Positions 37,014 through 38,914 of a DNA stretch of 64,000 bases are shown piece after piece. The notes under the pieces were generated by a model. It was not told the DNA's origin, searched no databases, and saw nothing but the letters and a program-made list of their open reading frames with translations. How positions within the stretch are numbered: position 1 is the first letter of the stretch; each line of letters opens with the position of its first letter. Made by a program: the position numbers and the translations under genes. The stretch lies in assembly GCF_009914755.1 (NCBI RefSeq), contig NC_060927.1; one strand, written 5' to 3'. This stretch comes from the human T2T-CHM13v2.0 reference genome, Homo sapiens.

Positions 37014-37732
37014 TTACATTAACTCATTTAATCCTCAAAGGAAAAAAAAAGAATGAGGTAGGTATTATTATTAAGCTACCTTAAAGAGAAAACTGAGGCA
37101 CAGAGAGGTTAAATAACTTCCAGAAGCATAAAACGTAGGAGCAGAGCCAGGATTTAAACCCAGGAAACCTGGCTGTTAAACACTACATTGTATTGTCTCA
37201 GTGGAATATCAGCCATAATAAGAACCACGTTCTGATACAGGTCAATTAGGAAGGAGTTAAAACATGTAATATGTGATGATATAAAAATTACTGGCTGCCA
37301 GATTTGACTATGAAGTCCTGCAGAAGAATTTTGGAGCAAACTTATTTTACTTCGAGTTGTCCCAGCTCCCTGGAAAATGTCAAATTCCGCTAACTTGTGT
37401 AATTTAAAGCTAGGCCAGGAGACCCCACGTGCGTGCATCTTGATCCTGGAGCTGCTTCCCTGGTGTCCAATGCAAATGGCCTCTGTGGCCTAGCACCCCC
37501 CTTCCCACCACTCGAGGTCGCACCAAGGCCTAGGAGGGTCACGTTGAGGTTCCTACCCACTGGCAAGCAAGAGCCTGGCAGCCATCCCCTCCGTGGTTTG
37601 CCCGTGGCCACCCATGACTACTACCGGCGCCTCCAGGGTTCCACTCGCAGCAGCAGCACCTGATGATGGGCCTTGCTGAGTACCCTAGAGAAGCCATCCC
37701 CCACCCCCTGGTCTCTGGAAGGCTGATCCAGG

Positions 37733-38710
37733 TGATAGGAGTGTAAGGTAAAATAAAGCTGTAAACATGTTTTGACCATAGGACAAGACATTGTTGAAAA
37801 AAAGTTTAAGTTGTGAACGTATTGACCAAAGAGTCAAAGAGTCAGGACATGTAAAACAAGATAAAATAGAAAAACATGTTTATGTGGACTTTGCCAAACA
37901 TATTTGGACTTCGGTAAACAACTTTAATGGATGCTACAAAATATGGTAAACAAGTGGACCAAAACAACAATGGAGTTCACCAGGGCATGACCAATCAGAC
38001 AAAGGTGTTCACCACTACACTGGGATGGAACACAGAAAAGAACGACTTCATTGACCACTTAGGCGCGACGTATCCCCCCAGTCAGTCTCCGAGCCCCTTG
38101 CTGCATTGTGCCCATATGCCCATTCACTCTCACATTGGACAAGACCACCACAGGCAGACAAGAGACTATGCCTGGACTATGAATAGAATGCAAACTGAAA
38201 GGTTTTTTTTGTTTTTGTTTTTGTGTTTTTGAGACGGAGTCTCACTCTGTCACTCAGGCTGGAGTGCAGTGGAGCGATCTCAGCTAACTGCAACCTCCGC
38301 CTCCCGGGTTCAAGCAATTCTCCTGCCTCAGCCTCCTGAGTAGCTGGGATTACAGGCATGTGCCACCATGCTCGGCTAATTTTTGTATTTTTAGTAGAGA
38401 TGGGGTTTCACCATAATGGTCAGGCTGGTCTCGAACTCCTGACCTCGTGATGCACCCACCTTGACCTCCCAAAGTGCTGGGATTACAGGTGTGAACCACC
38501 ATGCCCGGCCGACTGAAAGGTTTTAATTGCCTTGGTAAGGCTGCCCCTTGATGATCTCTTTTGAGTGTGTTTTTACATGTGTAGAGAAATGACCATTATT
38601 ACATACAATCAATAAACCGTGTGATTCAAACATTTAACTTGAGTCATTGATTCTTGTCATTTTCTGCACCATAAAATCCTCAAGAAAGCATGAGTTATGT
38701 CCTCGTGACA
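37733..38710 (+). mobile_element. Solo LTR, family not assigned, containing an Alu
   Basis: TG...CA termini, 5-bp TSD CCAGG/GCAGG, AATAAA at 38611 near the 3' end. Confidence 0.65.
38203..38510 (-). mobile_element. AluS (Sg-like) nested in the LTR
   Basis: Reverse Alu; TSD ACTGAAAGGTTTT. Confidence 0.93.
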
Positions 38711-38914
38711 GCAGGTCACTGGTGGGTGAGCTGCTTTTTCGGGAAGTCCACTGTCCTGTTCATGCCATGGTGTTGGAGTCCCCAGAGCACTTGGATTCCC
38801 CTCAGGCCTCCAGCATGACCACCTCTGGCCTGGTTCAGAGAGTCACCAGGAAGCAGCCTGGCAGCCACCCCAACAAAATCAGTGCCCATCTGGGCCTGTG
38901 CAGGCACCACGAGC

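What the first reader, a model, noticed from the sequence alone, without database searches (positions are those of the whole stretch)
37728..38715. LTR insertion at a CAGGT site creates a perfect GT-AG pseudo-intron in a PPDPF retrocopy
Seen: the retrocopy reads GATCCAG|GTGATAGG..(LTR with nested Alu)..GTGACAGCAG|GTCACTGG. The duplicated target (CCAGG/GCAGG) plus the LTR's initial T gives GT at 37732 and AG at 38713-38714. Removing 37732-38714 restores GAT CCA GGT CAC TGG (D-P-G-H-W) exactly. Established: transposon insertion at an AGGT proto-splice site is a proposed route of intron gain, with few mammalian examples. Inference: a natural snapshot of that mechanism, although the retrocopy is otherwise disabled and the pyrimidine tract is weak.
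Basis: partly seen in the sequence, partly recalled or inferred. Interest (0 to 1): 0.7.

Follow-up and report, generated by a model that had tools for sequence, protein, structure and literature searches.

The report
Rare solo LTR in dead retrocopy
A lone, likely retroviral end-repeat sits in a broken gene copy and happens to be framed by the GT and AG letters of an intron, but that framing is a common by-product of such insertions and is probably never spliced; the odder point is that only one other copy of this repeat was found in the human genome.

Summary
The letters are as described. A 978-nt TG...CA element (37733-38710, with a nested Alu) interrupts a processed PPDPF copy between CCAGG and GCAGG, giving GT at 37732 and AG at 38713-14. 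The parent gene has no intron there, and a second retrocopy shows the empty site. The geometry is not rare: any TG...CA element whose target duplication ends in AGG has it. 214 of 6994 exact THE1-type LTR starts follow AGG, and 18 of 30 fetched have the same GT...AG frame and donor core. The acceptor is weaker than 13 of 13 real ones, four other AGs lie just upstream, and a sense AATAAA lies inside. The retrocopy has lost its start codon and has at least four frameshifts. No transcript evidence was available. Verdict: a coincidental pseudo-intron, probably unspliced. Side result: three DNA searches and five pattern scans found only one other copy of the element (contig C2, about 79% identical, perfect 5-bp duplication, no GT-AG frame). 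It is a very low-copy, class III-like solo LTR whose family I could not name.

The parts
37424..37732 (+). 5' part of a processed PPDPF retrocopy (parent exons 1-3 and first 21 nt of exon 4, fused). Start codon changed to CTG at 37575; frameshifts near 37592, 37662, 37703; TGA TGA at 37661-37666
   Evidence: 76.7% identity to parent over 300 columns, non-CpG K2P 0.21
37728..37732 (+). left target-site duplication CCAGG; its last G is the G of the would-be donor GT
   Evidence: empty site in the C12 retrocopy
37733..38710 (+). solo LTR-like element, TG...CA ends with an imperfect 9-bp terminal inverted repeat, about 660 nt without the Alu; very low copy number; family not named
   Evidence: only other copy found is G000:C2:184857455-184858178
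38203..38511 (-). full-length Alu nested in the element, with its own 9-bp duplication (38194-38202, 38512-38520); AluS-type by recalled diagnostic positions
38535..38540 (+). competing donor-like site TTG|GTAAGG inside the element (G at +5, unlike the proposed donor)
38611..38616 (+). AATAAA, the likely LTR poly(A) signal, kept in the C2 copy; lies in sense inside the would-be intron
38711..38715 (+). right target-site duplication GCAGG (first base changed from C); supplies the would-be acceptor AG at 38713-38714 and makes a tandem CAG-CAG
38716..38914 (+). 3' part of the PPDPF retrocopy (rest of exon 4); frameshift near 38763; ends without its own AATAAA, joined to an Alu right arm
   Evidence: 78.0% identity over 205 columns

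Best explanation
A solo LTR-like element sits in a dead processed PPDPF copy between 5-bp duplicated target sites, and the GT-AG frame is likely a chance by-product of a target ending in AGG that is probably not spliced. Shown: the retrocopy, the empty site, the duplication, the TG...CA ends, the nested Alu, the lesions and the base rate. Inferred order: L1-driven retroposition of PPDPF mRNA; integration of a retrovirus or LTR retroelement at CCAGG; recombination between its two LTRs leaving one; a C-to-G change in the right duplication; Alu insertion. Because integrase leaves TG...CA between direct repeats, NNAGG|TG...CA|NNAGG always reads AG|GT...AG|G. If the element is transcribed in sense it would more likely end the transcript at its AATAAA than be cut out. 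The family is inferred to be class III (ERV-L/S-like) from the 5-bp duplication and layout only.
For: Parent exon 4 is uninterrupted at this codon (Gly52, 21 nt after the native acceptor). The C12 retrocopy has the empty site. The C2 copy has the same ends, a perfect 5-bp duplication and no GT-AG frame. Base rate: 214 of 6994; 18 of 30 fetched loci have a matching right duplication ending AGG at <=1 mismatch, 20 of 30 by a looser count. Acceptor: 11 of 20 pyrimidines against 13-17 in 13 real acceptors; other AGs at -5, -22, -28, -32, whereas no real acceptor had one nearer than -20. AATAAA at 37752 and 38611 lie inside; the retrocopy has none of its own. Start codon lost, at least four frameshifts, two stops. 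The hub's RefSeq table lists no exon here.
Against: The donor CAG|GTGATA is not hopeless: 7 of 9 consensus matches, inside the 5-9 range of real donors, and 1 of 11 real donors also has T at +5. Branch-point-like motifs exist at -78 and -65. By the hub's table the locus lies in a sense-strand intron of the transcribed pseudogene BTNL12P, so pre-mRNA may pass over it. No RNA data were examined. The real-site comparison is small. No internal retroviral sequence was found attached to either copy, so 'LTR' rests on architecture.
Confidence: 0.88

Rival explanations
1. The element is a real, at least occasionally spliced intron: a solo-LTR introner in a human non-coding transcript that restores the retrocopy sequence.
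For: Exact GT-AG frame; usable donor; sense-strand host transcription by annotation. Precedents: solo LTRs form introns in switchgrass (PMC12130899, passages); an exonic LTR retroelement is spliced out of Arabidopsis CMT1 using duplication-derived sites (PMC6238269, passages).
Against: Weak acceptor, competing AGs and donors, sense poly(A) signal. No annotated exon on either side. No reading frame to rescue. The second copy lacks the frame. The frame is common by chance.
Confidence: 0.05
2. The insert is not an LTR but another rare mobile element with a 5-bp duplication, such as a non-autonomous DNA transposon or a gypsy-type remnant.
For: No provirus-linked copy found; only two copies; family unnamed. 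No extended similarity to the viral records fetched.
Against: TG...CA ends with only a 6-7 of 9 inverted repeat, and a conserved AATAAA about 95 nt from the 3' end followed by a T-rich stretch, the LTR landmarks listed in PMC2664473 (passages). A 5-bp duplication is reported for ERV-L and ERV-S (PMC8278194).
Confidence: 0.06
3. The insert is a retained native PPDPF intron.
For: GT-AG ends inside PPDPF coding sequence.
Against: The parent has no intron at this codon and the insert has no match to the parent locus; the C12 retrocopy is empty; a homolog with its own duplication sits elsewhere.
Confidence: 0.01

Closest known systems
Transposon-insertion (protosplice AGGT) model of intron gain (PMC3443670, passages read)
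   Same: Direct repeats of the target put AG|GT at one end and AG|G at the other, so removal would be precise.
   Different: The model duplicates all of AGGT; here the duplicated 5-mer ends AGG and the T comes from the element. No splicing is shown and the host is a dead retrocopy.
Introners, including Copia solo-LTR introners of switchgrass (PMC12130899, passages read)
   Same: An LTR-type element whose ends and duplication supply splice dinucleotides.
   Different: Introners are annotated, spliced introns in families of at least 4; here there are two copies, one with the frame, none annotated as an intron.
Evelknievel retroelement in Arabidopsis CMT1 (PMC6238269, passages read)
   Same: Exonic LTR element with a 5-bp duplication that lends a splice site.
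   Different: There splicing was shown by cDNA sequencing (25% of events restore the frame) in a gene with its own promoter and exons.
Class III (ERV-L / ERV-S) solo LTRs (PMC8278194, passages, section 10 and a supplement term search)
   Same: 5-bp duplication; the C2 copy is 724 nt with TGT...ACA ends and AATAAA near the 3' end, like the 705-nt frog ERV-S LTR.
   Different: No sequence homology was shown; the window copy starts TGA; no internal genes are available to place it.
THE1-type (MaLR) solo LTRs with NNAGG duplications (family label recalled)
   Same: Identical geometry and the same NAG|GTGATA donor core.
   Different: A different, very abundant family: 6994 exact 5' ends against two copies here.

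Membership tests
Introner | Splice dinucleotides at the element boundaries allowing precise removal | tested here: met
Introner | Family of at least 4 similar introns in different genes (criterion in PMC12130899) | tested here: not met
   2 copies found, 1 with the frame
Introner | Splicing supported by transcript or RNA-seq alignments | not testable with these tools
   no RNA data; the hub's RefSeq table shows no exon here
Introner | Lies in an expressed exon of a host gene | tested here: not met
   host is a retrocopy with lost start, frameshifts and no poly(A) signal; unannotated in the hub's table
Solo LTR of an ERV or LTR retroelement | TG...CA termini with short imperfect inverted repeat | tested here: met
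   2 of 2 copies
Solo LTR of an ERV or LTR retroelement | 4-6 bp target-site duplication | tested here: met
   5 bp: one mismatch here, perfect on C2
Solo LTR of an ERV or LTR retroelement | Poly(A) signal near the 3' end followed by a T/GT-rich stretch | tested here: met
   AATAAA at 38611, kept in the C2 copy
Solo LTR of an ERV or LTR retroelement | A related copy flanking internal gag/pol with primer-binding site and polypurine tract | tested here: inconclusive
   neither of 2 copies has internal sequence; other mammalian genomes not available
Class III ERV (ERV-L / ERV-S) LTR | Pol phylogeny or match to a curated LTR model | not testable with these tools
   no Dfam or Repbase library; only the 5-bp duplication and layout agree
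Foamy-virus LTR | Extended sequence similarity to foamy LTRs | tested here: not met
   only a ~20-nt poly(A) motif is shared, which parvovirus-type records also carry
Processed pseudogene of PPDPF | Parent exons fused without introns | tested here: met
Processed pseudogene of PPDPF | Disabling mutations | tested here: met
Processed pseudogene of PPDPF | Own poly(A) tail and flanking duplication | tested here: not met
   3' end is replaced by an Alu right arm; no convincing flanking duplication

The most novel reading that the evidence does not exclude
The insert is one of only two surviving human copies of an uncatalogued LTR, the relic of a retrovirus lineage that entered the primate germ line only a few times roughly 35-60 million years ago and never amplified.
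Probability: 0.3. Interest if true: 0.45.

Novelty: new member of a known kind. Interest (0 to 1): 0.2.

Why it matters
As an intron-gain case it matters little. The frame is a predictable by-product of LTR integration, present in about 3% of one common LTR group. That count is the useful part: the human genome likely holds hundreds or more such ready-made GT-AG frames, so the shortage of LTR-born introns in mammals probably reflects weak acceptors, sense poly(A) signals and selection, not lack of opportunity. It can be tested by junction searches over that set. If the element is uncatalogued, it marks a rare retroviral invasion of early primates that repeat libraries built on copy number would miss (a limit noted in PMC2664473, passages).

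Tried and rejected
Foamy-virus origin: a poly(A)-motif scan of viral contigs gave 10 stretches. One tested record encodes spumavirus Gag and another a parvovirus coat protein, and none showed similarity beyond the motif. Rejected as a convergent motif. A scan for the element's 3' end followed by a primer-binding-site start gave 1 stretch with no extended similarity. Coding remnant in the element: a 92-codon open stretch (37918-38193) is not kept in frame in the C2 copy and has no Pfam match. Further copies: the 24 one-mismatch hits equalled the control level (26 against 26) and none aligned to the element. Of the two 3-mismatch hits, L053 gave a 53-nt 74% match but lacks the AATAAA and the end motif. 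The 33 three-mismatch hits were at control level (35 against 38) and their flanks were not examined. A flanking duplication for the whole retrocopy was not found. The L1 host of the C2 copy could not be confirmed from held loci. The bacterial promoter scan was irrelevant. In one search one PPDPF donor row was mis-indexed by one base and dropped, leaving 11 real donors. Literature: search listings for PPDPF + pseudogene and BTNL12P (0 papers) showed nothing on this locus; searches did not name the element.

Full report
Observation. GT is at 37732-37733 and AG at 38713-38714, 983 nt inclusive, and the 5-mers CCAGG and GCAGG lie 983 apart with one mismatch. The element between them (37733-38710) starts TG and ends CA and holds an antisense Alu with its own 9-bp duplication.

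The host. The flanks align to the intron-bearing parent gene on contig C20 (L004) across all three of its introns, at 76.7% (300 columns) and 78.0% (205 columns) identity, non-CpG K2P about 0.21. Parent and flank pieces match Pfam PPDFL, and the parent's exons give a 114-aa protein. The insertion point is inside Gly52, 21 nt into the parent's last exon, where the parent has no intron. A second retrocopy on C12 carries the empty site with CCAGG, so the left duplication keeps the original target and the right one has changed by one base. The retrocopy is dead. ATG has become CTG (37575), there are frameshifts near parent codons 7, 30, 42 and 68, and TGA TGA at 37661-37666 (indels the aligner placed at slice edges and beyond codon 110 were not counted). 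The 3' end with its AATAAA is replaced by an Alu arm. Precise removal would restore five codons in a frame that cannot be reached.

Chance. A TG...CA element between direct repeats NNAGG always reads AG|GT...AG|G, so only three bases are needed (about 1 in 64 per strand by naive expectation). I measured this on an abundant LTR group (THE1-type; label recalled). 6994 exact 5' ends exist genome-wide and 214 follow AGG, 3.1%. Of the first 30 such loci, all on C1 and C2, 18 have a matching right duplication ending AGG at <=1 mismatch. Two more end AGG with 2 mismatches, 5 run into what looks like internal sequence, 4 are mutated or ambiguous, and 1 end was not found. All 29 with an end found share the donor core NAG|GTGATA with the finding. 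Extrapolated, that is about 130 cases in this exact-match subset on one orientation (inference). The frame is ordinary.

Would it be spliced? Not tested directly. The donor has 7 of 9 consensus matches, within the 5-9 range of 11 real donors from FSTL1, BTNL12P and PPDPF, though 10 of 11 have G at +5 and this has T (one mis-indexed row dropped). The acceptor is the weak part: 11 of 20 pyrimidines against 13-17 in 13 real acceptors, and AGs at -5, -22, -28 and -32, whereas none of the 13 had one nearer than -20. A donor-like TTG|GTAAGG lies inside at 38535, and AATAAA at 37752 and 38611 lie in sense inside the would-be intron. In favour: branch-like motifs at -78 and -65, and by the hub's table the locus is inside a sense intron of BTNL12P, although no exon is annotated here. 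I put real splicing at about 5%.

The element. DNA searches with both halves and with the second copy found just two loci, each the other's only match. Five pattern scans on blocks shared by the two copies found no third copy above control level. Ignoring indels, a full-length copy 11% diverged from those blocks would be missed by all five with probability 0.003; at 20% the figure is 0.24 and at 25% it is 0.55. So a large, similarly aged family is excluded, but diverged relatives are not. The C2 copy is 724 nt, has no Alu, has the same ends and a perfect 5-bp duplication, and has no GT-AG frame. The copies are 79.0% and 78.3% identical over 442 and 189 columns, K2P 0.25-0.27. With a recalled neutral rate near 2.2e-9 per site per year this gives at most about 55-60 Myr if they were identical on insertion. 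The nested Alu (AluS-type, recalled) gives a floor near 35 Myr. The C2 host looks like an L1MA 3' end (recalled; not confirmed). TG...CA ends, AATAAA plus a T-rich stretch and a 5-bp duplication fit a solo LTR (PMC2664473, passages), and the 5-bp duplication fits class III (PMC8278194, passages, section 10 and a supplement term search). No repeat library was available, so the family may well have a Dfam name. A foamy-virus link was tested and rejected.

Comparison with what is known. The protosplice model is reviewed in PMC3443670 (passages). Solo-LTR introners are reported in switchgrass, and recent intron gain is described as apparently lacking in vertebrates (PMC12130899, passages). An exonic LTR element is spliced out of Arabidopsis CMT1 (PMC6238269, passages). 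Retrogene intronization is known in a few mammalian cases (PMC5470649, passages). The locus has the geometry of an introner but fails two tested membership criteria (family size, expressed host exon), and splicing is untested. Searches (listings only, apart from the papers named) showed nothing on this locus. The library lacks most subscription papers and repeat databases, and bioRxiv supplements were closed, so a prior name for the element could have been missed.

Verdict. Observation confirmed, interpretation overstated. This is a coincidental pseudo-intron made by a solo LTR in a dead retrocopy. Interest 0.2, most of it for the two-copy LTR and for the measured base rate.

Noticed in passing
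L002:1172-1895 (- strand) = G000:C2:184857455-184858178: The only other copy found of the element: 724-nt solo LTR-like sequence with a perfect 5-bp duplication, inserted in what looks like an L1 3' end (subfamily recalled, not confirmed).
   Followed up: yes
window 38907-39055: The retrocopy's 3' UTR is fused to an Alu right arm at a short shared stretch, with no flanking duplication found: either a later deletion between similar sequences or a template switch during reverse transcription.
   Followed up: partly
L005:1370-2055 = G000:C12 near 121.07 Mb: A second PPDPF retrocopy that lacks parent exon 2 (exon 1 joined to exon 3), with its poly(A) signal, tail and an apparent flanking duplication; it suggests an exon-2-skipping PPDPF transcript.
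   Followed up: partly
window 37760-37980: The A-rich 5' third of the element has several repeated GTAAAC/GCAAAC-type motifs, resembling forkhead-factor sites (motif recalled); a 33-nt block at about 37840-37872 is identical in both copies despite 79% overall identity.
   Followed up: no
window 38607-38627; loci L040-L049: The poly(A)-signal context of the element nearly matches a ~20-nt motif in foamy-type and parvovirus-type viral records, with no similarity beyond it; likely convergent.
   Followed up: yes
L054-L083: 18 of 30 THE1-type LTRs preceded by AGG form perfect GT-AG frames; a ready test set for whether such frames are ever spliced.
   Followed up: partly
window 43225 (+) and 35257 (-): Two further LTR-like 5' ends of MaLR type (label recalled) in the window, one inside the FSTL1 last exon of the hub's table.
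   Followed up: no
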